Made by a program: the position numbers and the translations under genes. From an uncultured virus (IMG/VR IMGVR_UViG_2806310815_000005) (taxonomy: Duplodnaviria > Heunggongvirae > Uroviricota > Caudoviricetes), in IMG/VR virus record IMGVR_UViG_2806310815_000005: DNA of 64,000 bases, one strand, 5' to 3'. Under the pieces are notes generated by a model. That model saw only the letters and a list, made by a program, of their open reading frames with translations, ran no database searches and was not told the origin of the DNA. Below, piece by piece: positions 36,901 through 62,873 of the stretch (its first letter is position 1; each line of letters opens with the position of its first letter).

Positions 36901-39680
36901 GTAGTGATGAGGCAATTTCTTTATCTAACAACCTTTTAAAAGCAAAAACACAGCTTAAAAATATACTAAAAACACACGCAAATAAAAATCAACCCACTGA
37001 AATAGATGGAAATGCTTTATCTAATACAGCAAAAGATACAGTAAGAACTATACAAACCGTATTAGACGGATATTACAGAGAAGCAAATTCAATATTAAAT
37101 GATGAAGGCAACTTTTCTTCGGATTCAATACTTACAGCAAATGATGCTTGGTTAGATCACATCGACAATTTAGGTATAGAAACAGCAGAAGAAGAATTTG
37201 ATGCAGCTAAAAAACATATGACAGCTACATCTGTGGATAGAACCAATTCTGACTTCTATACTATGGGTGCAAGAGCTAAAGAAGGAAAGCTTCAACCTAG
37301 TTTACAAGAAATATATGATACAACACCAGGGACAGATGCTCAAAAATTAGAGAGAACTAAAAAAGAGTTAGTCAGAAGACGGTTGCTTCCATATTATAAA
37401 AAATATACCTCGGTACAATACGAGAACTTTATAAATACGGTTGGTTCAGGAGGATCGGTTGAAGTAAATGGTAAATTGCTTTCTATGACTGACTATATAG
37501 ACTACGTATCAAAACAAAATGTAATAAGTATAAAACCAAACTACTCATTTTTTGATAGTAATAATAGTGCTGATGTAAACCCTAATTATAATAAAGGATA
37601 TAGAGGTGGTTATCTACAGCCTAAAAAAGGAAATATAAAATTGCCAAATGGAGACACTGTAAATTTTGAGAATAACACTTTTAAGCAACGATTTGCAGAT
37701 AAAAACTCAAAAGATTACAAAGCATATCAAGCTGTAATGGATTTCCACATTCAAAATTTAGATAGAATGGGTGTAGGGAGATCTTACAATGTATACTTAA
37801 AACCACAGTTTAGACAAGATACAGTAGAACGTGTAAATAAAACAATAAAAGACCCAAAAAGAATTGGATTGGCGTTTAAAGAAGCTTTTACTTTTACAGA
37901 AGATGACCAAGTAAAAGGTGATACAACTTATGGAGGTATAGAAAAAGTAATACCTAAAAGAGGTATTTATAAAATAGAAGATCAAAACGATGTTTCAAAT
38001 GATCTTTATAATACTATGAATATGATTGCTTATGAATCATTCTTAAGAGAGCAGCGTATTAACACTTATAGTGATGTAATGGCGGTTATGGATTCCATTG
38101 AAACTAGAGCAACAGTTAAGGATAAGAAAAACGACTCTACCAATGCTTATAAAATGGCTACAAGTGCAGTAGATAATTCACTATTTGGAATTAGAGAGCA
38201 GGTTACTTACGAAATAAATCTTCCATTTACAGATAAAAAAATGGATGTTGCAAAAGTAGGTAAGCAGTTATTATCTTATGTTAAGACACGTAATTTAGGG
38301 TTTAACGTAATTATCCCTATGACTTCGTTAATTACAGGTACAGCACAAAGAATAATTGAAACAAAAGTAGGGGAATTCTTGGAAAGCCGCTCTCAAAAAC
38401 TAGGTACAAAAGAGTTCTTTAAAATAGCAGGAGAGTCTGCAAAAGATTTTGGTAGTTTAAACCCAAAAGGAAAACTAAATGTACTTGGTCAAGTATTTGG
38501 TTCATTCGATTTAAAAGAGTCATTTAAAAACTCTAGTTATGGGATATTATCTAGAACGCTGCCTAGGATCGGTATGGGATTACACACCCTATCAAACTTT
38601 CCTCTGTATGGTAAGGCTATGTTAGGAGTCCTGCACGACTTTAGATTAGTAGAGCAACCCGATGGAAGTACAAAAATGATGAGGTGGTACGACTATAAAA
38701 TCGCCCAAATGAGAGAAGGTAAAACCACAAAAGAAGCTAAAGCGCAGTGGGGTACTATGGAGGCAGATGTAATCTATAATTATATAGAAGTAGTTGACGG
38801 ACAGTTTAATTTTAAAAAGCAATTAGAAGAAAAACTAACCGATTACAACGAAAAAGAGGTGATAGACCGATTAACAAACCACATAACTTCTGTAAATGAG
38901 AGAATCGACGGTCAGATGAATAATAATGACAGAAACTTAGCGTCAAGAGACTACCGTTTAAACTTCTTTAACACACACAGAAACTACTTTTGGCTTGCAT
39001 TATCACATAGATTTAAATCAAAAAGTAATAACCCTTTGACAGGAAAACTAGAAGAAGGAAGTTATATTACATTTTTTAAAGCCGCTAAAGACTATTTAAA
39101 CAACTTTAAAGAGTTAGGAGCAACCAACTTAATAAAAGGATTTAAAAAAGTATGGGATGATGCAGGAGTAGATCCAAAAACAGGAGAGATAGATTTTGAA
39201 CAGAGAGAACTAGTTAGAACAAACTTAAAAAGAATCGGTATTGAGTGGGCTATACTTCAAGTAACACTTCTAACAGGACTACTACTATCACAGATTGGTG
39301 GGGATGAGGATGATCCGTATATTTTAAAAAATTTAAATCTCCTCAACGCTCGTCTCAACAATGAATTAAACTCGGTACAAACGGGAATAGTTGGGTCTGC
39401 TTATGAAACCTTAAAAACACCTTTCGTTGGATTAGATACCGTCACGAATCTTGCTAATGTGCCTGATCTGCTTAATGACGAAGAAATAAAACACGGAAGT
39501 TATAGAGGTATGAATAAGAGGGAGAGATGGTTACTTAAACAAACACCAGGAGCAAAGTCTATGAGAGACTTAACAGAATTAACTCAAACAGTTAATACTT
39601 ATAATTTCTATAATGAGAAGTCTTACGATAACCCTTTAAACCCTATACATTATTTCATAAGTAAAAATTTGGAAGAGTAA
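33963..39680 (+). CDS. giant putative virion protein with degenerate zincin-like motif (1905 aa)
   Basis: LTEETAHF...REVLGK is an HExxH-like (EExxH) zincin pattern; starts MPCK; hydrophobic segment near the C-terminus. Confidence 0.6.
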   Translation: MPCKIKRNQNNEIVNVLDSQGIESSLYKSIAKHPLVQSNEEALNIYKNSQLPKIGEDATLVHKVGDITTTSYREALQAAKPGDDIKIGLQNTQGEYFNIITTEKTTNKNTVEGFTNFYIESGILNEDKKRVGNDYHFQPKGQDELARSINSQILREDAKAFLGTEGLTEGFETFQFDKTMNTIMLQTKNGEERISYEQLDQMTPQEVKRKFDNPDLILLERELYKNQPAYRNTTFTNQAPTRTEKELQKSLLSLLSKLGVTTMGISEYMSKYQARNGVNPNAEALADIANQVIAYSQGEISIENLTEETAHFIAEAMPIEQTQDILRNIHRTQEYAEYADRYREIYRSEYNEADLEDAVRREVLGKVIVNSIKNNFSTENKTGTQVGIINRIKQVFDSVIDTVRNMFKPLYRQELDVYLEDINRIIQSKDITTLNTDNFKFNKHRLYSVSKKSPLTKSIEKAIEGVNQQMQALSSESGMKGQKRGKLVRLEEDLNNKESLKAVSSVIDMAKNDIRYLKASIKDSKDNNKSYTLSTEESIVFSYLNGIIKGSLNELIATTNRTNIKETGLANSISDFKKWEQVNSDVKETIGDIEEISSEISQAKKQQIERIVDDLIRVNNFSERNREDYIKWAEKAENDTNYIHATFGALAHSQDGMLRTLDYLIRKIHNQTDSNFTRENNRINKVLRDLGFDTSYWRSLIDGSYIINEYNQELHDKYTNEVGVVYAYKKAVPKTNLKDSEIIERFKEGNIELNLSTDQANEFAQQKRNWDYAISERPMTEEYYKNYEKRLDQAGIKGVSKEALRNYYSDMSKMKQKALNSKGQIDMTLLSEAERVLWRQLTENRQSMKNYTDENGVPKNGLRYVEVNGQIQTNENGAPLFEPTFDVNDENLHKEYRDAIIALDINKLDELNIAERKKSEQEGIEPLPQGFIDGLRVAEAQGGEALVEFLKSNAYIGMSNDYWNNLETSDSLVERLRNEGSDEAISLSNNLLKAKTQLKNILKTHANKNQPTEIDGNALSNTAKDTVRTIQTVLDGYYREANSILNDEGNFSSDSILTANDAWLDHIDNLGIETAEEEFDAAKKHMTATSVDRTNSDFYTMGARAKEGKLQPSLQEIYDTTPGTDAQKLERTKKELVRRRLLPYYKKYTSVQYENFINTVGSGGSVEVNGKLLSMTDYIDYVSKQNVISIKPNYSFFDSNNSADVNPNYNKGYRGGYLQPKKGNIKLPNGDTVNFENNTFKQRFADKNSKDYKAYQAVMDFHIQNLDRMGVGRSYNVYLKPQFRQDTVERVNKTIKDPKRIGLAFKEAFTFTEDDQVKGDTTYGGIEKVIPKRGIYKIEDQNDVSNDLYNTMNMIAYESFLREQRINTYSDVMAVMDSIETRATVKDKKNDSTNAYKMATSAVDNSLFGIREQVTYEINLPFTDKKMDVAKVGKQLLSYVKTRNLGFNVIIPMTSLITGTAQRIIETKVGEFLESRSQKLGTKEFFKIAGESAKDFGSLNPKGKLNVLGQVFGSFDLKESFKNSSYGILSRTLPRIGMGLHTLSNFPLYGKAMLGVLHDFRLVEQPDGSTKMMRWYDYKIAQMREGKTTKEAKAQWGTMEADVIYNYIEVVDGQFNFKKQLEEKLTDYNEKEVIDRLTNHITSVNERIDGQMNNNDRNLASRDYRLNFFNTHRNYFWLALSHRFKSKSNNPLTGKLEEGSYITFFKAAKDYLNNFKELGATNLIKGFKKVWDDAGVDPKTGEIDFEQRELVRTNLKRIGIEWAILQVTLLTGLLLSQIGGDEDDPYILKNLNLLNARLNNELNSVQTGIVGSAYETLKTPFVGLDTVTNLANVPDLLNDEEIKHGSYRGMNKRERWLLKQTPGAKSMRDLTELTQTVNTYNFYNEKSYDNPLNPIHYFISKNLEE

Positions 39681-39699
39681 AAAACTGTTAAATATTTTA

Positions 39700-39735
39700 A
39701 AAAGCTCTGCGTTAATTTGTAGGGCTTTTATTTTT
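39700..39735 (+). terminator. intrinsic terminator ending the structural block
   Basis: AAAAGCTCTGC-loop-GTAGGGCTTTT followed by ATTTTT. Confidence 0.7.
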
Positions 39736-39747
39736 GCCGTATTTTTG
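39716..39747 (+). promoter_or_regulatory. Bacteroidota-type promoter (-33 TTTG, -7 TATTTTTG)
   Basis: TTTG 39716-39719, 20-nt spacer, TATTTTTG 39740-39747, about 20 nt before the next ATG. Confidence 0.6.
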
Positions 39748-39766
39748 TTGAAAATAACTTATAAAG

Positions 39767-40078
39767 ATGAAGTCAAAAATTTTAGGAGTAATCACAGGTC
39801 GATACCCTTTAGGATGTCAAGCGTACTCCATAGATGCAGAAACAGGTAAAATAATAGCCTCACATTTTTGCAGTAATGAAGTATTTGCAAAAAGCGATTT
39901 AGGTTTTACAGAACCAAGTTTTACAAGGTTACTAAATGAACCACATTCCACAGAAGGTTTTAATAGAGAAAGGAGAGACACCTACTCAAAACTATACCCT
40001 AATGGATATACTCTTGAATGGGTAGGTAACATAGAAAATGTAGATGGTTTAGCAGAGCTATTTAATCAAAATAATTAG
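39767..40078 (+). CDS. hypothetical protein (103 aa)
   Basis: ORF track; follows a promoter. Confidence 0.65.
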   Translation: MKSKILGVITGRYPLGCQAYSIDAETGKIIASHFCSNEVFAKSDLGFTEPSFTRLLNEPHSTEGFNRERRDTYSKLYPNGYTLEWVGNIENVDGLAELFNQNN

Positions 40079-40082
40079 AGTA

Positions 40083-40373
40083 ATGGAATTAGGACAAAAA
40101 GTAAAATTTGACAAAAAATACAAAAGAGTTCATTCAGTAGCTGGAGAAAATGGTTTTCAAAAAGTTTGGTCGGAAAAAGACATAAAAGAAACAGAAGGTG
40201 TGTTTGTAGGAGTAAGAAACTTAGTAAACAGTTATCTTGAAGAACACGAAGATTTTTCAGAATTTGAGTACTACCACGATGTTATAAATAAAGTAGAAGG
40301 GCAGTGCGCTTTAATAGCAGTTAGTAAAGCTCAATTAGTAAAAGTACCAATTAACAATTTAAAAACAGTTTAG
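40083..40373 (+). CDS. hypothetical protein (96 aa)
   Basis: ORF track; operon spacing. Confidence 0.65.
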   Translation: MELGQKVKFDKKYKRVHSVAGENGFQKVWSEKDIKETEGVFVGVRNLVNSYLEEHEDFSEFEYYHDVINKVEGQCALIAVSKAQLVKVPINNLKTV

Positions 40374-40375
40374 TA

Positions 40376-40558
40376 ATGGAGTGGATAAATGTTAAAAAAC
40401 CTTTTTCAGAATATGGGTTTTTATATAAGACTGTAAACGGTAAAATAGGCGTAAGTATGAATAGAAAGTTAGATGATTGGTTCATAAACAAATATGCTGT
40501 CCAATACTATATACCCATATTAAATATACTTAGCTTACCTCATAGCGATAAATTATGA
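40376..40558 (+). CDS. hypothetical protein (60 aa)
   Basis: ORF track; ATGA overlap with the next gene. Confidence 0.55.
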   Translation: MEWINVKKPFSEYGFLYKTVNGKIGVSMNRKLDDWFINKYAVQYYIPILNILSLPHSDKL

Positions 40559-40950
40559 ATAAAATCAGCTTCGATTATGATAGTACTTTGGATAAGCAAT
40601 ACATACAAGACTTTGCAAGAAGTTTAATTATAAAAGGTTTTGATGTTTGGGTATGTACTAGCAGGTGGGACGATGAAACCGCCGCAGAAAAAGGCCATAA
40701 AGATTGGAATAAAGACCTATTCAAAGTAACAGACAGTTTAGGTATACCAAGAGAAAAAATAATTTTCACTAATTACGAACTCAAATCAAAATTCTTAAAA
40801 GACAAAGGATTTATATTACACTTAGACGATGATTGGGTAGAACTAAATCACATAAACAATGAGACAAATATAGTAGGTATTTCCGTGTTTGGAGGAAACT
40901 CTTGGAAAAATAAGGTTAAAAAAATTTTAAGTACTTTGGATATTAAATAA
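40555..40950 (+). CDS. HAD-superfamily phosphatase (131 aa)
   Basis: Motif I ISFDYDSTL, motif II VCTSR, a Lys (motif III) and motif IV HLDDD. Confidence 0.75.
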   Translation: MNKISFDYDSTLDKQYIQDFARSLIIKGFDVWVCTSRWDDETAAEKGHKDWNKDLFKVTDSLGIPREKIIFTNYELKSKFLKDKGFILHLDDDWVELNHINNETNIVGISVFGGNSWKNKVKKILSTLDIK

Positions 40951-40958
40951 ATAAGTCA

Positions 40959-40966
40959 TATATTTG
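40959..40966 (+). promoter_or_regulatory. Bacteroidota-type -7 element for the interrupted membrane gene
   Basis: TATATTTG about 30 nt upstream of ATG 40996, with TTTG near 40935. Confidence 0.55.
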
Positions 40967-41019
40967 CATATTAACAACATTAAAACTTAGAAAAAATGTT
41001 AGGAACACTTTTAACTTAT

Positions 41020-42283
41020 AAGTTTTGTCAAAGAATATCAATTATCATTAAGAAATATTTAACGAATTTGTACAATAAATTTGTTTATTTTACATTTACA
41101 GAAAATTACTAATTTGTTTAAAAGCTTTAAATATAGAATTTACCCCACCGACTCTCAAAAGGAGCTGATACACAAGCATTGTGGTAGTGCTAGGTTCATA
41201 TACAACTTAGCTTTGGAGACAAAACAAATGGCTTATGCAGGAAACAAGGTAAACTTAACTTGTTTTGAACTTATCAAACAACTACCTGAACTTAAAAAAG
41301 AGCTTCCTTGGCTTAAAGATTGTAACAGTCAATCTTTACAAGCACCAATAAGGAATTTAGACAACGCTTTTACAAAATTCTTTAAAGGTCAGGCGGATTT
41401 TCCTGTATTCAAGAAAAAATCAAATAAAGGTAGTTTTAACATACCTCAAAATGTAATATTATCCGATGAAGTATTGGTGATACCTAAATTTAGAGAAGGT
41501 ATTAAGATTAAAATACATAGGGACTATTATGGTAAAATTAAAAGCGCTACAATATCTTATACTTCTACTGGAAAATACTTTGTTTCAATACTATGTGATA
41601 CGGAAGAAGAAAAACCTAGTAAACCAAAAATAACAGAAGAAAGCTCTGTAGGTATCGACCTAGGAATTAAAGACTTTATCGTTTCATCAGAAGCGCAAGT
41701 ATTTGATAATCCAAAATATTTAAGAAAGTCAGAAAAAAGATTAAAATTTTTACAAAGAAAGTATTCAAAACATAAAGGAAAAAGAACAAAACTAAAATTA
41801 GCAAAGTTACACGAAAAAGTAGCAAACCAACGAAAAGATTTTTTACATAAAGTTTCTAAAGAGCTTATCAAGAACCACGATACAATTTGTACAGAAACTC
41901 TACAGGTAAGAAATATGTTGAAAAACCACAATCTAGCAAAATCAATAAGTGATGCAGGTTGGGGTATGTTTATGACAATGTTAGAGTACAAATCTGAATG
42001 GTACGGTAAGAACCTGATTAAAATAGGCACTTTTGAACCATCCTCTAAGACTTGCGGTAATTGTGGGTTAATAAACAAAGATTTGCAATTAAAAGACCGA
42101 GAATGGACTTGTAAAAGCTGTTCTACTATACTTGACCGTGATTTGAACGCTGCTTGTAACATTAAAAACTTTGCTTTAAGAAACTATGTGTCTGGGACGG
42201 ACACTGAAAATCAGAACGAACTGCCTACATTGGTAGGAGTGTTGACTTCTGAAACTAATACACTTTAGTGCTTAGTAGTTCAC
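41020..42283 (+). mobile_element. IS200/IS605-family (IS1341-like, tnpB-only) insertion sequence
   Basis: Right end GAA-ACTAATACAC-TTTA-GTGCTTAGT-AGTTCAC (subterminal hairpin plus TTCAC); left junction inferred after TTAT; no target duplication; no tnpA. Confidence 0.75.
41114..42268 (+). CDS. tnpB: RNA-guided endonuclease TnpB
   Basis: N-terminal FKYRIYPT; RuvC-I GIDLG; RuvC-II TETL; zinc finger CGNC...CKSC; RuvC-III DRDLNAACNI. Start probably TTG 41114 (track gives 41081). Confidence 0.95.
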   Translation: MFKSFKYRIYPTDSQKELIHKHCGSARFIYNLALETKQMAYAGNKVNLTCFELIKQLPELKKELPWLKDCNSQSLQAPIRNLDNAFTKFFKGQADFPVFKKKSNKGSFNIPQNVILSDEVLVIPKFREGIKIKIHRDYYGKIKSATISYTSTGKYFVSILCDTEEEKPSKPKITEESSVGIDLGIKDFIVSSEAQVFDNPKYLRKSEKRLKFLQRKYSKHKGKRTKLKLAKLHEKVANQRKDFLHKVSKELIKNHDTICTETLQVRNMLKNHNLAKSISDAGWGMFMTMLEYKSEWYGKNLIKIGTFEPSSKTCGNCGLINKDLQLKDREWTCKSCSTILDRDLNAACNIKNFALRNYVSGTDTENQNELPTLVGVLTSETNTL

Positions 42284-42300
42284 TTAGTAATCGCGGCAGC
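42150..42300 (+). ncRNA. predicted TnpB omega/reRNA (3' tnpB plus right end) with flanking guide; boundaries approximate
   Basis: Inferred from established TnpB biology: the scaffold overlaps the tnpB 3' end and right end, and the guide starts after TTCAC (42284, TTAGTAATCGCGGCAG). Confidence 0.55.
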
Positions 42301-42606
42301 ATCAGGGATTATCTCTGTCTATGTTTACCGTAATAACGAAAAAACATTAGATAAATACTTTGATTTAGGTGATAAAGCTTGGGATAAAGCTAATGTAGAT
42401 GAAAAAATCGCCGCACTAAAGAAAAAATTAATTGAATTACAACAAGAGAAAATTTCAAAAAAGTAAAACTATGAAAAAAGGAAGCGACGGACTATTAACA
42501 GATATCATCTTTGAAGATACAATGGGGGGATAATAAAGTAAAAACAAAGATATGAATTAGAAGATAAATGGTTATGATCCCTGCAAGGAAACCAATTTTT
42601 TAATTT

Positions 42607-42637
42607 AAACCCTTAGATTAATTTCTAGGGGTTTTTT
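42607..42637. terminator. bidirectional terminator at the strand convergence
   Basis: AAACCCTTAGA-TTAATT-TCTAGGGGTTT with T-runs; lies where + and - gene blocks converge. Confidence 0.7.
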
Positions 42638-43106
42638 CGTTTGGATACATACTCGCTAAATACAAAAAATACTCCGCCTCAACAACATCCCAATGCTTAA
42701 TTAAATACTCAGGAAAGATAGATCCACCGTCTTGAACCAGATAAGGAAAAGCCACGTGACCATTTTCTAAAGACAATAAGTGATAAAGCTCGTGATACAA
42801 AACAGCTTTCCTAAAAGTAGGAAGATAGTTTGGAATATCAGCATTAACAAGGATTATCTTACGGTCATTCCTAGTCGCTCCGTGACGACCTTCTAAGTTA
42901 CTTGACACATAGATACCTTCAAGTAAAGAAAGCCGCTTAAAATCGATATTATACTTAGCACAAGACTTAATAAAGTCAGTTAGAACAGGTTTATAGAAAT
43001 CATCTACCTTAATAACTTTTCCGTCAGGAAGTACAAAATCAGAAACCTGAGCCTCCAAAGAAAGGAAACCCAGGTTTAAAATTAAAAATATAATTAACTT
43101 TTTCAT
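42618..43106 (-). CDS. exported zincin-like metallopeptidase (162 aa)
   Basis: Signal peptide MKKLIIFLILNLGFLSLEA-Q; HELYH (HExxH) plus a downstream His (ENGH). Confidence 0.65.
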   Translation of the reverse strand: MKKLIIFLILNLGFLSLEAQVSDFVLPDGKVIKVDDFYKPVLTDFIKSCAKYNIDFKRLSLLEGIYVSSNLEGRHGATRNDRKIILVNADIPNYLPTFRKAVLYHELYHLLSLENGHVAFPYLVQDGGSIFPEYLIKHWDVVEAEYFLYLASMYPNEKTPRN

Positions 43107-43109
43107 AAC

Positions 43110-43850
43110 TTAAACGTATCTTAAAGATGTTTTGTGTGGGTTGTGCAATATAGCATTACTCAAGTATTTATAACTTTGTGGTTTTGAATAAGAGGCTTCT
43201 TTTAAAGAATCATAATATATTCCTGTATCAGTGTCTAAGACTATTTTAGCACTTTTTCCTTTTTTACCTTTAGATTTACTATTGAATATTTTTGTACCAC
43301 CATCCTCAATTTTTTCTCCGTCAGGTGTTATTGAAAAATTTTTCCAATTTTCTAAAGCCTTATTATAGCTATCAGAGGCTTCTATTTCAGATTTAAAATA
43401 ACCCAAATAATATTTCCTTTGCATTATTCTTATGCTTGCCGCCCATCCTTCGCACTTACTGTCTTTTGAAACTCCTTTAAACTTAGAAGTGACATTATTT
43501 CTTTTACTGTTGTAACTATTTTCTCTCTGGGAGCACCACCTTAAGTTAGACAGGTTGTTATTACTTCTATCAGAATCTATATGGTCTACAACTAAACCTT
43601 CTTTTAGACCCTCAAAAGTAATTAATATCAATCTATGTACATATATCCTAGAACTTTTCTTATTCTTATAAAGTTGTACAGATTTATACCCTCTACCATT
43701 ATCATACTGTCTTAATACTTTAGGAGGTTTATTTTCAGTAACACCATTAACTTTTAAAACTTGTCTTCCTAAGCTTTTAACTCTCCCTAGATTACTTGCT
43801 TGATAAAGCCCTTCATAGTCAGGCACATCTTTCCAAATTTCTTCTTCCAT
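43110..43850 (-). CDS. NUMOD4-HNH-AP2 homing endonuclease (246 aa)
   Basis: EIWKDVPDYEGLYQASNLGRVKS (NUMOD4); VHRL..VDHIDSDRSNNNLSNL (HNH); SKFKGVS..YLGYF (AP2-like). Confidence 0.9.
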   Translation of the reverse strand: MEEEIWKDVPDYEGLYQASNLGRVKSLGRQVLKVNGVTENKPPKVLRQYDNGRGYKSVQLYKNKKSSRIYVHRLILITFEGLKEGLVVDHIDSDRSNNNLSNLRWCSQRENSYNSKRNNVTSKFKGVSKDSKCEGWAASIRIMQRKYYLGYFKSEIEASDSYNKALENWKNFSITPDGEKIEDGGTKIFNSKSKGKKGKSAKIVLDTDTGIYYDSLKEASYSKPQSYKYLSNAILHNPHKTSLRYV

Positions 43851-43864
43851 TTTTAAATAAAATA

Positions 43865-43936
43865 CCCGCCAAGCAGAGGTTAAGGATCTCTACGAAGCGG
43901 GGTTTATAATGTTTTAGTTTGCAGCCTTAACTCTAC
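43865..43936 (-). ncRNA. putative structured leader RNA (two hairpins with complementary loops)
   Basis: On -: GTAG[AGTTAAGG]CTGC, then CCCGC..GTAGAG[ATCCTTAAC]CTCTGC..GCGGG; loops GTTAAGG and CCTTAAC are complementary. Confidence 0.55.
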
Positions 43937-43939
43937 GAT

Positions 43940-43979
43940 TACAAATATAAAACAAAATATCTATTCTGCCAAATTTATT
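43940..43979 (-). promoter_or_regulatory. promoter AATAAATTTG-N13-TTTGTTTTATATTTGTA
   Basis: Bacteroidota -33/-7 consensus; the same arrangement occurs at 53778-53817. Confidence 0.7.
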
Positions 43980-45306
43980 AATTTTTCCATTTAAATTTTT
44001 TATAAGATATATCAATTTCCTCTTCATTTAGATCAAAAACCTCGACAACATACCCACTAACACCTTTTTTAAAGTTGTTTTGCACCCATTGGGATGCAGG
44101 ACTAAACGCAGGGTAGTTAAAATAATCAAAATCTTGGGATGTAGTAAAATCTAATAAAAACTGGTGGGAGTCTCCTTTGCAGAAGTGAAAATATTCGTAT
44201 TTATTATATAAATTATTTCCTTTTATGTATTGATCTATTTTTTCTATTGCTTTAGTGTCTAGGACAGGCTTAAATCCGAATTTGAGGGTCTTGTCATCTT
44301 TCCCGTGGCTGATTATAAAACAGTGTTTTCCTACACCATAATGAGAGATAAATTTTCTATGATTATTTACACTAACATTTTCATATTTGGTTTCTAAAAT
44401 ATATTTAGCAGCAGAGTTTATAAAATAGTCAAAATCCCCTCCGTGATTAGAGTTACACACATTTTCACAAATAATTTGAGAATACTGACCAGTAGCTATT
44501 AGTAAGTCTACCATAACAACCTTAAATTCCACAGCAGTGTCAAACACCTCTGTATTAGTCATATTTTGAGGGAGATCATGACCCCCCCTTGTGGTATAAC
44601 CATTATATCCGTCAGCGGTATCACCGAAATCTCGGATGTATAAAATTTCAGAGTTGTTTTGTATACTTTTGTTTACTGTCTGAACAACCATTTCTTTCAT
44701 CCTAGTCATCAACTCTTTTCTATTCCAAACACCTCCGTACAAGCTATTATTGTATTTATCAGGTTCGAGCCCTATGTGTGAATCAGTGTAAGTCATATTA
44801 GTGATGATAGATGTAGAAGCATCTTTTTTGTATGGAATATTATCCGCAGGCTTAATATGCTTTTTAACAACACTTTCAATAAATTCTTCATCGATACCTG
44901 AGACTTCTTTTAAAGTAGGTTTAAATCTAACATTATAAACCATATGTCCTGCATTGTGAGCCACAAGGTTGTACTTTTCCAAGTTGTCAAAAGACAGATT
45001 AAATTTATTACAGTACTCCTCGATACTATAAAATCTATTTAACTCACTGCTCCAAGCAGATGGCATAGAAAATACTTCTTCCTCATCTTCTATATTAACT
45101 GTTTTTTCTTTTTTAGTGGCTTTTTCATTCTCAAAATTAGCATCTGATTTACCACCACCATCTAGATTATTTATAATTCTGCTAAATTTCCGCCTAACAT
45201 TATCTGTATACTCTATACCGTGTTTTTCACAGTATTTTTTAGCTACATCGGTTATTGTGGATTCTTGTTCCCACAAATTTGAAATCTCATTTTCGTTGTA
45301 TTCCAT
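43978..45306 (-). CDS. calcineurin-like metallophosphoesterase with N-terminal extension (442 aa)
   Basis: TDSHIG, DFGD, NSNHG, SHG and GDSH motifs. Confidence 0.7.
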   Translation of the reverse strand: MEYNENEISNLWEQESTITDVAKKYCEKHGIEYTDNVRRKFSRIINNLDGGGKSDANFENEKATKKEKTVNIEDEEEVFSMPSAWSSELNRFYSIEEYCNKFNLSFDNLEKYNLVAHNAGHMVYNVRFKPTLKEVSGIDEEFIESVVKKHIKPADNIPYKKDASTSIITNMTYTDSHIGLEPDKYNNSLYGGVWNRKELMTRMKEMVVQTVNKSIQNNSEILYIRDFGDTADGYNGYTTRGGHDLPQNMTNTEVFDTAVEFKVVMVDLLIATGQYSQIICENVCNSNHGGDFDYFINSAAKYILETKYENVSVNNHRKFISHYGVGKHCFIISHGKDDKTLKFGFKPVLDTKAIEKIDQYIKGNNLYNKYEYFHFCKGDSHQFLLDFTTSQDFDYFNYPAFSPASQWVQNNFKKGVSGYVVEVFDLNEEEIDISYKKFKWKN

Positions 45307-45370
45307 TTATTTAATTTTAGTTACGCAATATAAACTATTTAAGTAATATATGCAAGTTTATTAATTGTTT

Positions 45371-45796
45371 TTACAGTTTATCTTTGAACTTCAAAAAGTT
45401 ATTCCACAAATTCTCCATATTGTCTTTCCCCACAGGATTCGCAGAATGAAAGTACATAACAGGGAAGACATCCACATCTTCATCAAGAAAATAGTTTATA
45501 ATAAACTTAACACAATCTAAACCTGTTTTTTCAGAGTGAGTTTGTAAGTCTTGATATAGTTTAGATACATTATAATCTGACCAGTACTTTTCAGGAGTAT
45601 AGTGTGAATCTCCTAAATCGTGATCAAATGAAATAGCTTGAGGAATACCATACCTTTCAATAAAAAGCACAAACTCTTCGTAATTTCTAACCCAAACCAA
45701 ATCTTCTTGTAAGAATTTTTCGGGAACGCGTTCTTCTAAGTTTAAATAGGGGTTTCTTAAATCGTCTAACCAAAGACATACATTATTTGTTTTCAT
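45371..45796 (-). CDS. cyclic-phosphate-processing receiver-like domain protein
   Basis: LWLDDLR, ISFDHDLG, KTGLDC, HSANPVG pattern; start probably ATG 45796. Confidence 0.75.
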   Translation of the reverse strand: MKTNNVCLWLDDLRNPYLNLEERVPEKFLQEDLVWVRNYEEFVLFIERYGIPQAISFDHDLGDSHYTPEKYWSDYNVSKLYQDLQTHSEKTGLDCVKFIINYFLDEDVDVFPVMYFHSANPVGKDNMENLWNNFLKFKDKL

Positions 45797-45843
45797 ATTC
45801 CAAATTTTTACCACTATTTTAATTTAGTGGTGATTATTAGTTT

Positions 45844-46170
45844 TTATATATCTGTTATTTCTATACCTAATAAAGACACAAGACACTTCATTTCATTATA
45901 ATCCCATTCATTTTCAATATTAAAATTCTCTTCTAAATCTTCAAGCTGTTCTTGTATTTCTTTATTTTTTACTTTCACTCCCCACCAATTATAATCAGAA
46001 GCTAGTGTTAAAATATGAGTATTCTTTTTTATAGTTCTTATCTTATCTATAAAACTCATCTTATTAAAACGAGCAGACATTATTCTATAATCCTCTAAAG
46101 CATACTCTCTAAATTGCTTTTTCATAGTTTGCCACTCTTCGTCTGTATATTTTTGTCTTAAATTTCCCAT
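45844..46170 (-). CDS. hypothetical protein (108 aa)
   Basis: ORF track; TAATG coupling. Confidence 0.6.
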   Translation of the reverse strand: MGNLRQKYTDEEWQTMKKQFREYALEDYRIMSARFNKMSFIDKIRTIKKNTHILTLASDYNWWGVKVKNKEIQEQLEDLEENFNIENEWDYNEMKCLVSLLGIEITDI

Positions 46171-46967
46171 TATTTTCCTGCTATTAGTTCATAAATATCT
46201 TGCTTATGTTTTTGACCGTTCTTTTGACGCGCATATTGACACTTAAACTCTAAGATACGTTCAACAGGATTTACTTTATAAGTATTTCCTTTAAATTCAA
46301 CGATTTTGTACTTTTCATTTGGCTCTATACTTAAATCTAACTTAACTCCTTTTAAAGTGAAAGTTTCATCAAAAGTATTACCGCTGTTTTTAGCGTCAAT
46401 ATGAGCTACACCGTCAAGCTCTTTTAAATCAACCCAAAAAGGGTGTATTAAATCTAAGTCACCACAGCCTTCTACTTCTAATCTCCTTAATCTTGCACCT
46501 TGTAAATATAGAGCAAGACTTCCACCAACAATTAGGTTTGGGAATTTATTTTGTAAATCTCTTACTAAGTTAAGTTTAAGTCTGTCGTCTTCTTCTCTAT
46601 CTTCTTTTTCCTGAACTATTTTATCTAATTCCTCTTTAGACACTTCTTCCAAAAATTCTATATGATCGGTACAAGATTTATTGGACTCATACCCTGTACC
46701 ATCTTTCCAACGACCTTTAATCCTAACTTTAAAGTAACGATTTTCGCCGCCAAGAGAGTACCATTTAAAACAATCTTCCAAAGTATTACAGTAATGAATA
46801 ACTGAACTAGAGCAAATCCTTAAAGATTTGTCCTCAACAGCACCCTCTCCTATACTAGTTACAGATACAACTTTCCTATCAGAAGTTACCATATATTCTT
46901 TACCTAGTTCATACTGCTGTTGTTTACAGTACATATTTTCATCTGTTGCTTTATATCCTATCTTCAT
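46170..46967 (-). CDS. two-domain protein with C-terminal Pol-beta-like nucleotidyltransferase (265 aa)
   Basis: VGGSLAL...GDLDL (GS plus DxD) and a later KLD; N-terminal YKATD..C..QQYELG..IHYC phage domain. Confidence 0.6.
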   Translation of the reverse strand: MKIGYKATDENMYCKQQQYELGKEYMVTSDRKVVSVTSIGEGAVEDKSLRICSSSVIHYCNTLEDCFKWYSLGGENRYFKVRIKGRWKDGTGYESNKSCTDHIEFLEEVSKEELDKIVQEKEDREEDDRLKLNLVRDLQNKFPNLIVGGSLALYLQGARLRRLEVEGCGDLDLIHPFWVDLKELDGVAHIDAKNSGNTFDETFTLKGVKLDLSIEPNEKYKIVEFKGNTYKVNPVERILEFKCQYARQKNGQKHKQDIYELIAGK

Positions 46968-47119: not shown

Positions 47120-47797
47120 TTAAATAAATTTTGGTGTAAAATCTCCTTGACAACATCCAGGAACAGGTAAAAGTAAGTCTCCCGCTTGGTCAACATTTTT
47201 ATTTGACATCATATTTTGATACCATCTTTTTTCAGTTGTTTTTGAAGGATCTACTAATACGTGATACCCACCTTTTGTCTGAACAATGTCAAAACAATCT
47301 ATGTTTCCTGTGGCTTCGTAAACTATATCCTTAATATGCTTATCGTAGTTTTTATTTGAAATATCAAAATCAAAATCGACTCTAAAAGAACCTGACTTAC
47401 TTACCTGTATTGCATTTAAAGCGATTGACTTCGGATTCTGATACCTATCTTTACCTATGTTGTCAAGTATCATTTTAGCCGTTTTAATAGATGCATTTTT
47501 CATACTTCTAGGTGTCGGATGGATATACAAAGCCAATGTATCTAAAGGAATATCTTCAACCCCATTTATCTTATAACTACCAACAGGACATTCCATCTTT
47601 CTAATTTTATCAAACAGCCTATCTTTAGTAGAGGTAGTTCTTGCTAGTTGAGATTTATCTGATTTCAGTATGTTTGTTTTATCATACTTACTTCTTGCAA
47701 ACAAAGCTAAATAAAATTGTTCTCCGTCTTTTAAATTGGGAAGCCATTCAATAAATTTTTTTAATTTATCTTCGTCTTTAATAATTTTGTAATTCAT
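47120..47797 (-). CDS. AEP (primase/PrimPol) superfamily-like protein (225 aa)
   Basis: RVDFDFD (motif I, DxD), TKGGYHVL (motif II) and a downstream D (NVD). Confidence 0.55.
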   Translation of the reverse strand: MNYKIIKDEDKLKKFIEWLPNLKDGEQFYLALFARSKYDKTNILKSDKSQLARTTSTKDRLFDKIRKMECPVGSYKINGVEDIPLDTLALYIHPTPRSMKNASIKTAKMILDNIGKDRYQNPKSIALNAIQVSKSGSFRVDFDFDISNKNYDKHIKDIVYEATGNIDCFDIVQTKGGYHVLVDPSKTTEKRWYQNMMSNKNVDQAGDLLLPVPGCCQGDFTPKFI

Positions 47798-48896
47798 TAT
47801 TTCTTATTTTAAGTTCAATATTACAAATAAATTCTAAATCCACTTCATCTTTTAACGAAGAGTTAACATATAATTCTTTTAGTTCTTCTGCTTTAATAGA
47901 CCATTCATCCATAATTTTCTTTAAATCAACATCCCCTTTTTTGATGTCTAACAGAAAATTTCTGTCTTTTGTTCTATCCACATTTATAGAGTTTTGAAGG
48001 GGTATTTCTTGGGCAGTCATAATAAGCCTCACAGTATGCATTATATTTTTACCGTCATAGTCTTGACCGTGTTTTTTATTAGTAGCTACCCTAGTCTCGT
48101 TTCTAGCTTTTAACCACTTTTGATATTCTCTATACTCCTTACAGTGAGTGGAATAAGCCTCTCGATTAAAATACATAATACCCTTCCAATCGTTTATCCT
48201 ATATTTTTCTATCACAGATTTTCTAGGTTCATTTGTGCTTTCCTCTCCGATACCTTTATAACCCCTTTCTGAGAAACTTATATCATCAAACCTATGATTA
48301 TCATTTACCCATTTTATATCGTCCAAATAAAACCTATAACAATCTCTAAAACCATCTATTGATGCAAGACCTACTTGTTGTTGTGTATAGTCATTATCTT
48401 TTAACCAATCTTTAACTAAAAAAGTCTTACCTGACTCTCTATCAACAATTTTAGAAAAATCGATTATATCTTTTCTTTCAGTTCTTTTTTTCTCCCAATT
48501 AAATTTTTTATTTAAACCTTGCGCTTTTGAAAGCTGGGTCTTAGCATAACCTGAGAAAGTATTATAACATTTCTTAGATAAGAACTCCTCTTTAATTGAC
48601 AGTAAATACTTCCATTCATCAGTCCAATATAGCATACATCTATCAGGTAAAAATAAGAGCTCTAGTACGTTTGGATTTCCAACAGAGACAAGTTCTAAAA
48701 AACGCCTTAGTTCGTAATAAACTGTATCTGCATCCACATCTATTTGAGCAATATAATTGTTAGATAAAATATCTTCATTAGGTTGCAGAAATACGCCTTT
48801 AATATCTTGATCAGACTCAGGGGTATCTAATCCGTATGCTTGACTACCGACTATACCTTCAAAAATTATTTTATATTTATTTTGTAGTAATTTCAT
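47778..48896 (-). CDS. Pol-beta superfamily nucleotidyltransferase, RlaP-like (372 aa)
   Basis: GSQAYGLDTPESDQDIKGVF, GNPNVLELL, FSGYAKTQ, YDGKNIMHTVRL, LLDIKKG. Confidence 0.85.
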   Translation of the reverse strand: MKLLQNKYKIIFEGIVGSQAYGLDTPESDQDIKGVFLQPNEDILSNNYIAQIDVDADTVYYELRRFLELVSVGNPNVLELLFLPDRCMLYWTDEWKYLLSIKEEFLSKKCYNTFSGYAKTQLSKAQGLNKKFNWEKKRTERKDIIDFSKIVDRESGKTFLVKDWLKDNDYTQQQVGLASIDGFRDCYRFYLDDIKWVNDNHRFDDISFSERGYKGIGEESTNEPRKSVIEKYRINDWKGIMYFNREAYSTHCKEYREYQKWLKARNETRVATNKKHGQDYDGKNIMHTVRLIMTAQEIPLQNSINVDRTKDRNFLLDIKKGDVDLKKIMDEWSIKAEELKELYVNSSLKDEVDLEFICNIELKIRNNELQNY

Positions 48897-52491: not shown

Positions 52492-53679
52492 TTAAGATAA
52501 GTTTAACGTTTCAATTATTTCTTCTACGGGTAAGTCTAAGGTGTAGCATTCTGTGTACCCGTCAAATTGCTCAAATGGAATATATTTATAAGAATAAAAT
52601 TTTCTATGTAATAGTATCTCTGTGTCAAAAGCTGTACCTGCATCAAATGAACAAGTGAATACCTCTTTATATTCAAAATATTTACTATATATGTTAGGTC
52701 TAAATCTTTTCTTCAGCCCTTTGTAAGTTTTACCTATTTTATAAAATTCTTCATTCTTATTCCAACATCTAATTAAATATACTATAGCAGGTCTCCCTTT
52801 TGCGCCGTTCACATAAGATGTTCTAGGGTATCCTCCGTTTTCAATACCGCATTGAGGGCATCCGTACCCAGTTAAGTGATCGTTAGGTGTTATTTTAAAG
52901 TATTCTTTATGAATTTTACAATAAATGTCCCCCTTTGTTTTCGCTGTTTTATACTCAAACTTATCATAAATAGATTCATCTGTACCTAATCTTTTCATAG
53001 CTTTTTTGACGAAATCCTCTTTATTAGAAGTTAAAGCTTCTCCTCTTCTGTCTTCCCAACAGAGTCCACACCCCTGACCATTAAGTAACCAATTAGGTTT
53101 AATTCTAAGTTCTCCGTGCTTTCTACATCTAATATTACAGTATTTTAGTGCACCTTTGTAAGTAAAATCACTAAAATCAATTGAATTTTTCCAACCTTCA
53201 CGTTCTCTGTATTTATTTATAAAATATAGAGAGGGAAAACAAGCCGCTTTTATAGTAAAATCAGATTTAGATAAAAGAGAAGCTCCGTTGATAAGAAGTA
53301 TGCCATATTTATCTTGAATGTATATTTTTTGGTCTTTTAAGGCTTTATCTTTTAACTCTCTAGTTAAGATTTTTATGTCAGGGTGAGTCTCTTTAACTTT
53401 CTCTACTAATTCGACATAACTGATCCTCTTACTTTTGTGTGAATTATCCATACCGCACTGAAAACAACCTTTATTAGAAGATAGATGATTGTAAAAAGTA
53501 GTTTCTAATTTACCGTGTACGGGGCAGATTATAGTTACAGGGGACTTTTTTAAAGGTAATTCTTTTATTAAAGAGTAATCAAAGAAATCACCAAATTTTT
53601 CAATTGACTTATTAACATAATAATCTCTTCGCTCTTTAAAATTAAACCCTATAGTAGGATTGTGTCTACTTTTACTCAT
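52492..53679 (-). CDS. putative homing endonuclease: repeated Zn-ribbon modules plus C-terminal GIY-YIG-like domain
   Basis: Three CxxH...CxxC units (CPVH/CFQC, CRKH/CGLC, CKIH/CPQC), then VYLIRC..YKIGKT...E..LH...GYTECY. Probable start ATG 53679; the track GTG lies inside the leader hairpin. Confidence 0.75.
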   Translation of the reverse strand: MSKSRHNPTIGFNFKERRDYYVNKSIEKFGDFFDYSLIKELPLKKSPVTIICPVHGKLETTFYNHLSSNKGCFQCGMDNSHKSKRISYVELVEKVKETHPDIKILTRELKDKALKDQKIYIQDKYGILLINGASLLSKSDFTIKAACFPSLYFINKYREREGWKNSIDFSDFTYKGALKYCNIRCRKHGELRIKPNWLLNGQGCGLCWEDRRGEALTSNKEDFVKKAMKRLGTDESIYDKFEYKTAKTKGDIYCKIHKEYFKITPNDHLTGYGCPQCGIENGGYPRTSYVNGAKGRPAIVYLIRCWNKNEEFYKIGKTYKGLKKRFRPNIYSKYFEYKEVFTCSFDAGTAFDTEILLHRKFYSYKYIPFEQFDGYTECYTLDLPVEEIIETLNLS

Positions 53680-53689
53680 AAATAAAAAT

Positions 53690-53770
53690 CCCGTCACTTA
53701 TCATCTGCATCTCACCTCAGAATCAAAGCAACGGGTATTTTGTTAGTGCGTATTAAAGTGAGATGACGCA
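53690..53770 (-). ncRNA. putative structured leader RNA (two hairpins with complementary loops)
   Basis: On -: TGCGT[CATCTCACTTTAAT]ACGCA, then CCCGTTGCTT..TCTG[AGGTGAGATG]CAGA..AAGTGACGGG; loops CATCTCAC and GTGAGATG are complementary. Confidence 0.6.
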
Positions 53771-62324: not shown

Positions 62325-62873
62325 TTAATCTGTTATTTCTACTTCCCAATTATACATTGCTTTATATACTCTATCATCAATTTTATCTTTCCATTTATCG
62401 GCCACTTCCTTAATATGTTTTTCTTTTGCTTTTTTATACGCTTGAAAAGCTTCTTCTGGTGTTTTAAAATAGCCTAAATGAGTCTGAGTATAACCTATAT
62501 TTATTGTAGCTCTGTATTTTTTATTTACTTTCACTACGCCCTTAAAATATTTCGATTTCTTTTTATTTCCAAAAATTTTATTTATTTCTTGAGGAACAAA
62601 ACAGCAAAATTTAGAATCATATACAGTATTACCTTTGGCTAAAATATCCTTATCCAAATGCCATCCTTCCATATATTCAGGTTTGTAATTTTCTTCAAAC
62701 CATCTACTAAAATTACTAATACGCAACCAGTCGATGGACACAATACAATTTTTATAATTCTTGTGGCGATAACACCTCTGTAATATGTTCATCCACAAAT
62801 CATATATAATAGGTGTAGTTTTTTCAACATCTATGATCCCTCCATATCTATTCCCTGTACTTTTTATTGACAT
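62325..62873 (-). CDS. HNH-like/AP2 homing endonuclease (182 aa)
   Basis: W.NILQRCY...LDKDIL..GN..Y...CCFVPQEIN, then AP2-like GV...HLGYFKTPEEAFQAY. Confidence 0.8.
   Translation of the reverse strand: MSIKSTGNRYGGIIDVEKTTPIIYDLWMNILQRCYRHKNYKNCIVSIDWLRISNFSRWFEENYKPEYMEGWHLDKDILAKGNTVYDSKFCCFVPQEINKIFGNKKKSKYFKGVVKVNKKYRATINIGYTQTHLGYFKTPEEAFQAYKKAKEKHIKEVADKWKDKIDDRVYKAMYNWEVEITD

What the first reader, a model, noticed from the sequence alone, without database searches (positions are those of the whole stretch)
40996..42466. Intact TnpB element in a phage with reconstructable empty site, TAM and guide
Seen in sequence: removing 41020-42283 restores an in-frame 68-aa gene (MLGTLLTY|LVIAAASGIISVYVYRNN...). 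This places the insertion after TTAT and ends it at the hairpin plus TTCAC. All three RuvC acidic residues and the zinc finger are present; there is no tnpA. Established: TnpB uses right-end RNA plus flanking sequence as guide and cuts TAM plus target at element-free alleles. Inference: TAM TTAT and guide TTAGTAATCGCGGCAG would target the uninterrupted allele of co-infecting sibling phages, making this an RNA-guided homing element in a phage. Both gene halves are undecayed, suggesting a recent insertion. The left junction is inferred from frame restoration; junctions a few nt away are possible.
Basis: partly seen in the sequence, partly recalled or inferred. Interest (0 to 1): 0.7.

Follow-up and report, generated by a model that had tools for sequence, protein, structure and literature searches.

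The report
Transposase-less TnpB element in marine phage
A 1.26-kb selfish element that carries only an RNA-guided nuclease (TnpB) and its guide RNA splits a tiny membrane-protein gene in a ~141-kb marine phage; it is a well-built member of a known element family, and its proposed self-copying between sister phages is plausible but untested.

Summary
Removing 41020-42283 restores a 68-codon frame. The right end at 42283 is fixed by relatives whose homology stops at the same GTTCAC. TnpB aligns to ISDra2 TnpB (E 7e-70) with the D/E/D triad and zinc finger. The guide-RNA scaffold shows strong covariation: 12 of 26 pairs are compensatory, and 0 of 500 shuffles reach the observed values. No tnpA lies in the 64 kb.

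- **Empty allele:** none was found in proteins, viral contigs, metagenome contigs or four laid runs.
- **"Recent insertion":** a sibling phage from another study carries the same insertion, so this claim is not supported. That sibling's element is an identity island inside diverged flanks.
- **TAM:** the family motif is TTTAT; the window has CTTAT.
- **Second junction:** another in-frame junction (TTTAT, 41088) exists but scores as non-coding.
- **Relative L013:** this related element has natural empty sites in 9 related phage contigs, with 0-3 guide mismatches.

Phage-to-phage TnpB homing is described as theoretical in a 2026 review (PMC13565253). This scan has noted similar TnpB-only phage elements on other DNA before.

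Verdict: new member of a known kind, moderate interest.

The parts
40996..41019 (+). 5' fragment of the interrupted gene: ATG plus 8 codons. As it now stands it runs on into the left end as a 38-codon ORF that stops at TAA 41110-41112.
41015..41019 (+). The family consensus is TTTAT.
   Evidence: functional status inferred
41020..41113 (+). Left end, 94 nt, about 17% GC. It has no IS605-type subterminal hairpin: DNA fold z = +0.55, and 140 of 200 shuffles fold as well.
41114..42268 (+). tnpB: TTG start, 384 codons, TAG stop. The start lies 1 nt after the stop of the truncated upstream ORF, so translational coupling is possible (inference).
42104..42283 (+). omega-RNA scaffold overlapping the 3' end of tnpB. 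A long-range helix pairs 42104-42109 with 42277-42282. There is a hairpin at 42188-42204 and a compound stem at 42211-42252.
42254..42283 (+). Right end: a weak AT-rich imperfect hairpin (42254-42276) followed by the conserved terminal AGTTCAC (42277-42283).
42284..42299 (+). Predicted 16-nt guide, TTAGTAATCGCGGCAG. It is unique in the window even with up to 3 mismatches allowed.
   Evidence: the 16-nt guide length is taken from what is known of ISDra2 (recalled)
42284..42466 (+). 3' fragment of the interrupted gene: 60 codons plus TAA, with no start codon of its own. It is in the same frame as tnpB, separated from it by the TAG stop and 5 codons.
42607..42634 (+). Terminator-like hairpin at the point where the + and - gene blocks converge.
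43110..43850 (-). Neighbouring free-standing HNH_3 + NUMOD4 homing-endonuclease gene. It is a possible alternative driver of the local sequence identity between siblings.

Best explanation
**What it is.** A 1,264-bp transposase-less element of the IS200/IS605 family (IS1341-like, tnpB only) sits after CTTAT between codons 8 and 9 of a 68-codon membrane-anchor gene. That gene is the last one in the structural gene block of a ~141-kb marine crAss-like phage related to Cellulophaga phages phi17:2 and phi4:1.

**How it most likely works.**
- tnpB is transcribed with the phage's late operon. It may be translated by coupling to the truncated host ORF.
- The 3' part of the transcript folds into the omega-RNA scaffold (42104-42283) and continues into the flank as a ~16-nt guide.
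- The element's own junction carries TTCAC where a target would carry the TAM, so it is protected.
- The only matching target is the uninterrupted allele (TAM followed by the guide sequence) in a co-infecting sister phage.
- Cutting that allele either destroys the competitor or, through recombinational repair from the filled genome, copies the element in. This would be TnpA-independent, 'non-restorative' homing.

**Shown:** protein family and catalytic residues, the right-end boundary, conserved RNA structure, the family TAM, absence of tnpA in 64 kb, degenerate end hairpins, and the same insertion in a sibling.

**Inferred:** the exact left junction, tolerance of CTTAT as a TAM, expression, cleavage and homing.
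For: **Protein and RNA**
- TnpB domains are present. It aligns with ISDra2 TnpB at E 7e-70 with the RuvC D/E/D triad and zinc finger aligned.
- The omega-RNA fold has 26 pairs, 12 of them with compensatory changes and 98.7% of cells paired. 0 of 500 shuffles reach the observed values, and sliding the partners gives only 33-40% paired.

**Boundaries and target**
- The right end is fixed by relatives.
- The guide is unique in the window.
- The left junction is supported by codon statistics and by the restored hydrophobic segment.

**No sign of transposase-based mobility**
- No tnpA was found in the window.
- The left end has no hairpin and the right-end hairpin is weak, whereas relative L008's right-end hairpin folds at z = -4.7. 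TnpA-driven movement therefore looks unlikely.

**Selection on TnpB**
- The 15 differences between siblings in 41146-41218 fall in 13 codons, 12 of them synonymous (two double-hit codons combined by me).

**Identity island in sibling X5**
- There are 0 differences in 41219-42330 and in 40971-41145, while the rest of the 3.1 kb holds 21 differences.
- Under a uniform model, an element body free of all 21 has P of about 3e-5 (my arithmetic).

**Precedent within the clade**
- Element L013 (TnpB 66% identical) has real empty sites in 9 related phage contigs. The TAM-position pentamers are TTTAT (4), ATTAT (3), CTTAT (1) and TTCAT (1), with 0-3 mismatches to its guide.
Against: - **No empty allele found.** The 60-residue fragment has 0 homologues among 5.8 billion proteins. 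Viral contigs gave only a spurious hit. Metagenome contigs returned only the source contig. No joint from 41019 to 42284 appeared in 4 of 4 laid runs, and X3, X5 and X6 all show filled-allele contigs. These runs are contigs, which drop rare variants.
- **TAM mismatch.** The pentamer is CTTAT, not the family's TTTAT.
- **The identity island is not diagnostic.** Divergence between the siblings is patchy anyway: 42493-43200 also has 0 differences. An HNH homing-endonuclease gene lies about 830 nt away. Metagenomic contigs can also be strain chimeras.
- **The 73-nt patch.** A patch with about 20% divergence inside tnpB does not fit one clean recent copy.
- **Start codon and promoter.** TnpB starts with TTG, and I found no promoter of its own. 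The sigma-70-type scan is at chance level (11 found against 11.1 expected).
- **No expression data.**
Confidence: 0.5

Rival explanations
1. Passive passenger. An ordinary IS200/IS605 insertion entered an ancestor of this phage lineage, mobilised once by a TnpA supplied in trans by a host or co-resident element. It knocked out a dispensable small gene and is now simply inherited. TnpB is intact only because too little time has passed, and no phage-to-phage homing takes place.
For: - Two lineages from independent studies share the same insertion at the same site, and no empty allele was found.
- The TAM is off-consensus (CTTAT).
- There is no promoter of its own, and the start codon is TTG.
- TnpB genes annotated as 'transposase' occur in many phage records (30 records).
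- TnpA-carrying relatives exist in viral contigs (L024, L026, L027, L029).
Against: - Both end hairpins are degenerate, so the element is not a fresh TnpA substrate.
- Outside one patch the element is identical in the two siblings, while the flanks differ at 0.7-1.5%. That fits recent lateral spread better than old vertical inheritance.
- The differences inside the patch are 12 of 13 codons synonymous.
- The omega-RNA helices are all intact in the window's copy.
Confidence: 0.33
2. Different left junction. The element starts at 41089, after the perfect TTTAT at 41084-41088. The interrupted gene would then have had 91 codons and the left end would be only 25 nt long.
For: 41088 is one of only two TTAT sites that fall on a codon boundary of the ATG-40996 frame. 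The join is stop-free, and the motif is the exact family pentamer.
Against: - 41020-41088 has 17% GC and scores -0.161 per codon, lower than 99.7% of real in-frame 23-codon chunks.
- Weak similarity to the start-proximal left end of relatives begins 5' of 41088.
- The proven left end of L013 is 53 nt, so 25 nt would be unusually short.
Confidence: 0.1
3. Retention device only. A tnpA elsewhere in the unseen ~77 kb of the genome, or in the host, still excises the element. TnpB then serves the published restorative role, re-cutting the excised donor site, and is not used for spread between phages.
For: - The sibling's contig holds two further short TnpB-like matches: 27 nt with 1 mismatch and 31 nt with 4 mismatches. 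They map outside the window, so the genome probably carries more IS copies.
- The restorative mechanism is established for IS605-family elements (abstracts of PMC10055086 and PMC10690162 seen).
Against: - The left end has no TnpA-type hairpin and the right-end hairpin is weak.
- No tnpA was found in the 64 kb.
- None of the 12 nearest viral relatives has a tnpA within 1.5 kb.
Confidence: 0.07

Closest known systems
ISDra2 TnpB with its omega/reRNA (Deinococcus radiodurans; PDB 8bf8, 8exa, 8h1j)
   Same: - Same three-domain protein. phmmer E is 7e-70 across residues 3-356, with the catalytic D/E/D and zinc finger aligned.
- The guide RNA scaffold overlaps the 3' end of tnpB and the right end.
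- The guide is the flanking DNA, and a 5-nt T-rich TAM lies 5' of the left end.
   Different: - There is no tnpA next to it.
- The left-end hairpin is absent and the right-end hairpin is weak.
- The TAM family is TTTAT rather than ISDra2's TTGAT (the latter recalled, not tested).
- The element sits in a lytic-type phage genome and starts with TTG.
IS1341-type (tnpB-only) members of IS200/IS605, and TnpB 'homing' (Meers et al. preprint PMC10055086; Zedaveinyte et al. preprint PMC10690162; abstracts seen only)
   Same: A tnpB-only element whose guide matches the element-free site. Double-strand-break-stimulated recombination is the expected route of maintenance or spread.
   Different: - The published demonstrations are in bacterial chromosomes and plasmids.
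- Review PMC13565253 (passages read) treats copying into co-infecting phages as theoretical.
- Here the resident replicon is a phage and no transposase is in sight.
Free-standing homing endonucleases of phages (SegF, SegB, mobE of T4; intronless homing and marker exclusion), as summarised in PMC13565253
   Same: - A selfish nuclease gene in a phage, predicted to cut the sister phage's allele and be copied in with co-conversion of the flanks.
- This window also carries three such protein-guided endonuclease genes.
   Different: - Recognition is by guide RNA plus TAM, not by protein.
- Self and non-self are told apart by presence or absence of the element, not by sequence polymorphism.
Related phage element L013 (IMG/VR contig, TnpB 66% identical)
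   Same: - Same right-end type: an AT-rich hairpin followed by AGTTCA(T/C).
- No tnpA within 1.5 kb, and a short AT-rich left end.
- TAM TTTAT.
   Different: - L013 sits at a stop/start overlap between two conserved genes and its last base recreates the ATG, so no gene is lost.
- Its empty site is documented in 9 related contigs. The window's element breaks an orphan gene and has no documented empty site.

Membership tests
IS200/IS605 family, TnpB (OMEGA) nuclease | TnpB architecture: HTH_OrfB_IS605, OrfB_IS605 (RuvC) and zinc-ribbon/TNB domains | tested here: met
   Pfam E-values are 1.2e-14, 2.6e-23 and 6e-23, all above the gathering scores. PHROG 506 'transposase' scores 6.7e-123.
IS200/IS605 family, TnpB (OMEGA) nuclease | Intact RuvC catalytic triad (D, E, D) and CxxC...CxxC zinc finger | tested here: met
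   Alignment to 8bf8_A: D191, E278 and D361 (numbering recalled) pair with D, E and D of the window protein, and both cysteine pairs are present.
IS200/IS605 family, TnpB (OMEGA) nuclease | Conserved structured guide-RNA scaffold at the 3' end of tnpB, ending at the right-end boundary | tested here: met
   RNAalifold on 12 sequences gives 26 pairs, 12 with compensatory changes. 0 of 500 shuffles reach the observed values, and the slid controls are far lower. No Rfam family matches.
IS200/IS605 family (autonomous IS605/IS608 type) | Y1 (HUH) transposase TnpA in the element | tested here: not met
   tblastn with TnpA from L026 and L029 gives no hit in the window. No Y1_Tnp appears among the window's ORFs scanned with Pfam. 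The rest of the genome was not seen.
IS200/IS605 family (any TnpA-mobilisable member) | Matching imperfect subterminal hairpins at the left and right ends | tested here: not met
   The left end folds no better than shuffles (z +0.55). The right-end hairpin is weak (z -0.21). Relative L008's right-end hairpin has z -4.73.
IS200/IS605 family | Insertion 3' of a specific TAM without target-site duplication, with an exact element-free site existing | tested here: inconclusive
   The junction is inferred from frame restoration and codon statistics. CTTAT is one position off the family's TTTAT. No empty allele was found.
RNA-guided homing element (functional class) | Cleavage of the empty allele and copying of the element into it | not testable with these tools
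   Only indirect evidence is available: the identity island in sibling X5 and empty sites for relative L013.
IStron (group I intron plus TnpB) | Group I intron at the 5' end that splices the element out of the host mRNA | tested here: not met
   Rfam at E <= 1 over 40500-43000 gives only a chance PK-HAV hit. The left end is only 94 nt.

The most novel reading that the evidence does not exclude
A whole clade of TnpB/omega-RNA elements has given up TnpA-based transposition and lives in marine and other phages as RNA-guided gene drives. Each is aimed at the element-free allele of sister phages. The identity island around this element in an independently sampled sibling (49 and 47 identical bases on either side, then divergence) would be the co-conversion footprint of such a homing event in nature.
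Probability: 0.4. Interest if true: 0.7.

Novelty: new member of a known kind. Interest (0 to 1): 0.4.

Why it matters
TnpB is the ancestor of Cas12, and it is known to preserve its transposon by cutting the vacated site. Whether it can also drive itself through virus populations without any transposase, in the way protein homing endonucleases do in T4-like phages, is still called theoretical in a 2026 review (PMC13565253).

This locus supplies a concrete and testable set of parts: nuclease, scaffold, guide, predicted TAM and predicted target. The related element L013 goes further, because its targets exist in nature.

A positive assay would show RNA-guided gene drive and competitor killing among phages. 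It would also add a compact TTTAT-TAM nuclease to the toolbox.

If negative, this is just one more stranded insertion sequence.

Tried and rejected
**Search for the empty allele (all negative)**
- The 60-residue fragment against 5.8 billion proteins gave 0 hits.
- The same fragment in viral contigs gave one hit, L001. It lies inside an unrelated 486-aa ORF and is spurious.
- In metagenome contigs it returned only L037, which is 100% identical to window 38284-46463 and so is the source contig.
- The neighbour gene 40555-40947 gave four loci at 45-52% identity. I did not examine them further.
- The C-terminal 559 residues of the 1905-aa virion protein and the 162-aa downstream gene found no relatives in viral contigs.
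- The nearest named phages are Cellulophaga phi17:2 and phi4:1, at 43.5% amino-acid identity. They show no synteny downstream.

**Laid runs**
- Run X7 covers both flanks but shows no phage-like contig over tnpB. Depth is only 2-4 and these are short contigs, so this is not evidence of an empty allele.

**Records that could not be reached**
- No whole genome is held for this window.
- The source record is not searchable by handle. I therefore could not see the other ~77 kb, nor the two further TnpB-like matches implied by X5.

**Other readings and checks**
- Rfam has no family for the RNA.
- TAG read-through fusing TnpB to the 3' fragment (same frame) is rejected. TAG ends 8 of 53 ORFs, and giant ORFs are intact under code 11.
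- The 5-nt direct repeat ACTTA at both junctions would imply a 1,268-nt element and an in-frame TAG. It would also cut into the conserved terminal AC of the right end, so it is rejected.
- A host-derived near-identical IS was not found. The best matches in species genomes are 62-67% identical and sit in MAG contigs. The best protein outside the phage's own cluster is 78% identical.
- The sigma-70 promoter scan is uninformative.
Full report
**What the window is**

The 64-kb window is phage DNA.
- PHROG and Pfam hits include giant virion proteins of 2366, 2204 and 1905 aa, crAss tail-ring proteins 1 and 2, a tail fibre, family-A DNA polymerase, a DnaB-like helicase and uracil-DNA glycosylase.
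- The 1905-aa protein is 43.5% identical to that of Cellulophaga phages phi17:2 and phi4:1, genus Lightbulbvirus.
- The source metagenome contig (L037, 141,276 nt) is identical to window 38284-46463.
- An independent study yields a 141,481-nt contig of a sibling. This is therefore most likely a complete ~141-kb lytic-type genome.
- Genes run on the + strand up to about 42.5 kb and on the - strand beyond it. The finding lies at this convergence point.

**The observation**

*The interrupted gene*
- ATG 40996 plus 8 codons ends at 41019, and 42284-42466 is a 60-codon open frame with no start codon of its own.
- Joining the two in a script gives a stop-free 68-codon frame.
- The 3' fragment is real coding sequence. 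It scores 0.578 per codon on the phage's own codon statistics, against 0.49 +/- 0.16 for in-frame gene chunks, and no off-frame chunk reaches it.
- The join creates a 19-residue hydrophobic segment (mean 1.97) that the fragment alone lacks (0.83). The last 45 residues hold 21 charged ones.
- The product therefore looks like a small N-terminally anchored membrane protein.
- It has no homologue anywhere I searched.

*The nuclease*
- TnpB (TTG 41114 to TAG 42268, 384 aa) has all three Pfam domains.
- It aligns with ISDra2 TnpB at E 7e-70, with the D/E/D triad and both CxxC pairs in place.
- Relatives start at ATG or GTG aligned to the TTG at 41114, and public gene calls give the same 384-aa product.

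**The right end and the guide RNA**
- Thirty viral contigs carry TnpB relatives at 40-71% identity.
- In 9 of the 12 nearest, homology to the window stops exactly after GTTCAC. One has GTTCAT and two have CTACAA. The sequences beyond differ in every context.
- Ten of 18 more distant relatives end the same way.
- The 200 nt before the end fold into a shared structure of 26 pairs. Twelve have compensatory changes and 98.7% of cells are paired. 0 of 500 shuffles reach the observed values, and slid controls give 33-40%.
- In the window these are a hairpin at 42188-42204, a compound stem at 42211-42252, and a long-range helix between 42104-42109 and 42277-42282.
- The 16-nt guide occurs only once in the window, even with 3 mismatches allowed.

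**The left end and the TAM**
- Left ends are not alignable across the family. In 7 of 8 relatives with a clear GC-rich left-end hairpin (L008, L010, L011, L017, L018, L022, L030; not L019), TTTAT lies 15-19 nt 5' of the hairpin (read by eye).
- L020/L021 and L027 instead share homology from just after TTTAG.
- The window has CTTAT at the frame-restoring junction.
- Only three TTAT sites lie between the ATG and tnpB, and two fall on a codon boundary: 41019 and 41088, the latter a perfect TTTAT.
- The 69 nt between them have 17% GC and a codon score of -0.161, lower than 99.7% of real in-frame chunks. I therefore keep 41019|41020 at about 0.75, give 41088 about 0.1-0.15, and leave the rest to other junctions.
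- The window's left end has no hairpin better than shuffles, and its right-end hairpin is weak. L008's right-end hairpin is strong.
- No tnpA is present in the 64 kb, so the element looks stranded for TnpA-type transposition.

**What the population data say**

Four runs were laid on 39700-43200.
- X3, which may be the source, matches fully.
- X5, from another study, has one 141,481-nt contig spanning 40059-43200 with the element in place, 36 differences and 3 small gaps.
- X6 also shows filled-allele contigs. X7 is too thin to judge.
- No run shows a joint across the element. The insertion is therefore shared by diverged siblings, and 'recent' is not supported in the simple sense.

The distribution of differences in X5 is striking.
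- There are 14 in 40141-40970.
- There are none in 40971-41145.
- There are 15 in the 73 nt of 41146-41218.
- There are none in 41219-42330.
- There are 4 in 42331-42347 and 3 plus indels in 42475-42492.
- There are none from there to 43200.
- The patch changes 13 codons, 12 of them synonymously (with two double-hit codons combined by me). It therefore comes from a diverged but functional tnpB allele or paralogue.
- The element body free of all 21 non-patch differences has P of about 3e-5 under a uniform model (my arithmetic).

This is what co-conversion after homing would leave. General mosaic recombination, the nearby HNH endonuclease or a chimeric assembly could also produce it.

X5's contig also holds two further short TnpB-like matches outside the window, so the genome probably carries more copies.

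**A relative with proven empty sites**
- L013 (TnpB 66% identical) has the same AT-rich right-end type and no tnpA within 1.5 kb. It lies between a cytidylyltransferase-like gene and an epimerase gene.
- Nine related phage contigs (L074-L082; epimerase 62-76% identical) lack the element. In eight of them (all but L079) the two genes abut or overlap.
- At the position of the insertion these contigs read TTTAT (4), ATTAT (3), CTTAT (1) or TTCAT (1). This is followed by a 16-mer with 0 (2 contigs), 1 (4), 2 (2) or 3 (1) mismatches to L013's guide.
- L013's right end finishes in T instead of C, which recreates the epimerase's ATG.
- This proves the TAM-adjacent, duplication-free insertion mode for this clade inside phages. 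It also shows that such guides do have natural targets in other phages.

**Comparison with what is known**
- This is an IS200/IS605-family, tnpB-only element.
- TnpB in viral genomes is recorded (PMC10691335, passages), and many phage records annotate such genes as transposase.
- TnpB as a homing nuclease that preserves its transposon is published (abstracts of PMC10055086 and PMC10690162).
- Review PMC13565253 (passages) lists 'transposon non-restorative homing' into co-infecting phages as theoretical, with plasmid evidence only.
- A cyanophage preprint (10.64898/2026.02.14.705889, passages) speculates on similar roles.
- My two full-text searches found no demonstration of phage-to-phage TnpB homing. 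I did not read supplements.
- Earlier notes of this scan describe several analogous TnpB-only or IsrB-only cassettes in other phages. The pattern is therefore recurrent, which lowers the novelty of this instance.

**Verdict**
- The anatomy is confirmed: about 0.9 for the element, right end and guide, and about 0.75 for the left junction.
- RNA-guided homing or competitor cutting is the best functional reading at about 0.5. A passive passenger is at about 0.33.
- It is a new member of a known kind.
- Interest is moderate. The locus is testable, but its target allele has not been seen and the broken gene is an orphan. The related L013 locus is the better natural test case.

Noticed in passing
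window 43110-43850 (-), 52492-53697 (-), 62325-62873 (-): Three free-standing homing-endonuclease-type genes lie in 20 kb: HNH_3 + NUMOD4; DUF723 + T5orf172, directly downstream of the family-A DNA polymerase gene; and an HNH PHROG 953. Together with TnpB, this phage is heavily colonised by selfish nucleases.
   Followed up: partly
window 39765-40059: In sibling X5 this stretch, which is most of the 103-aa ORF 39767-40078, is replaced by 127 unrelated letters. A small variable cassette therefore lies about 1 kb upstream of the element.
   Followed up: no
window 41146-41218: A 73-nt patch of tnpB differs at 15 positions (about 20%) between siblings, almost all synonymous, inside otherwise identical sequence. 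This looks like gene conversion from another tnpB copy. Run X6 also holds a 161-nt contig over 41261-41421 with 21 differences.
   Followed up: partly
window 41557-42162 (-); L011 1491-2549 (-): Long antisense ORFs lie inside tnpB: 201 aa here and 352 aa in relative L011. A cyanophage preprint (10.64898/2026.02.14.705889) reports peptides from a comparable antisense ORF. I did not test whether the frame is conserved beyond what sense-strand constraint would produce.
   Followed up: no
L013 2660-2666: The right end of this related element ends in GTTCAT instead of GTTCAC, which recreates the ATG of the downstream epimerase gene. In empty alleles that start codon is made of the TAM's last two bases plus the first base of the target.
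   Followed up: yes
L002/L003 about 2675-2730: A second ATAGTTCAC lies 47 nt beyond the element's right end and is preceded by TTTAT. It may be a remnant of an earlier insertion at the same place.
   Followed up: no
L008 and L010 (same 23.7-kb viral contig): Two related TnpB elements with near-identical left ends sit 3.4 kb apart in one viral contig. Each follows TTTAT.
   Followed up: partly
window 45371-45814 (-), 47778-48896 (-): A cREC_REC (cyclic-phosphate processing receiver) domain protein and an RlaP-type RNA-repair nucleotidyltransferase lie in the early/replication block.
   Followed up: no
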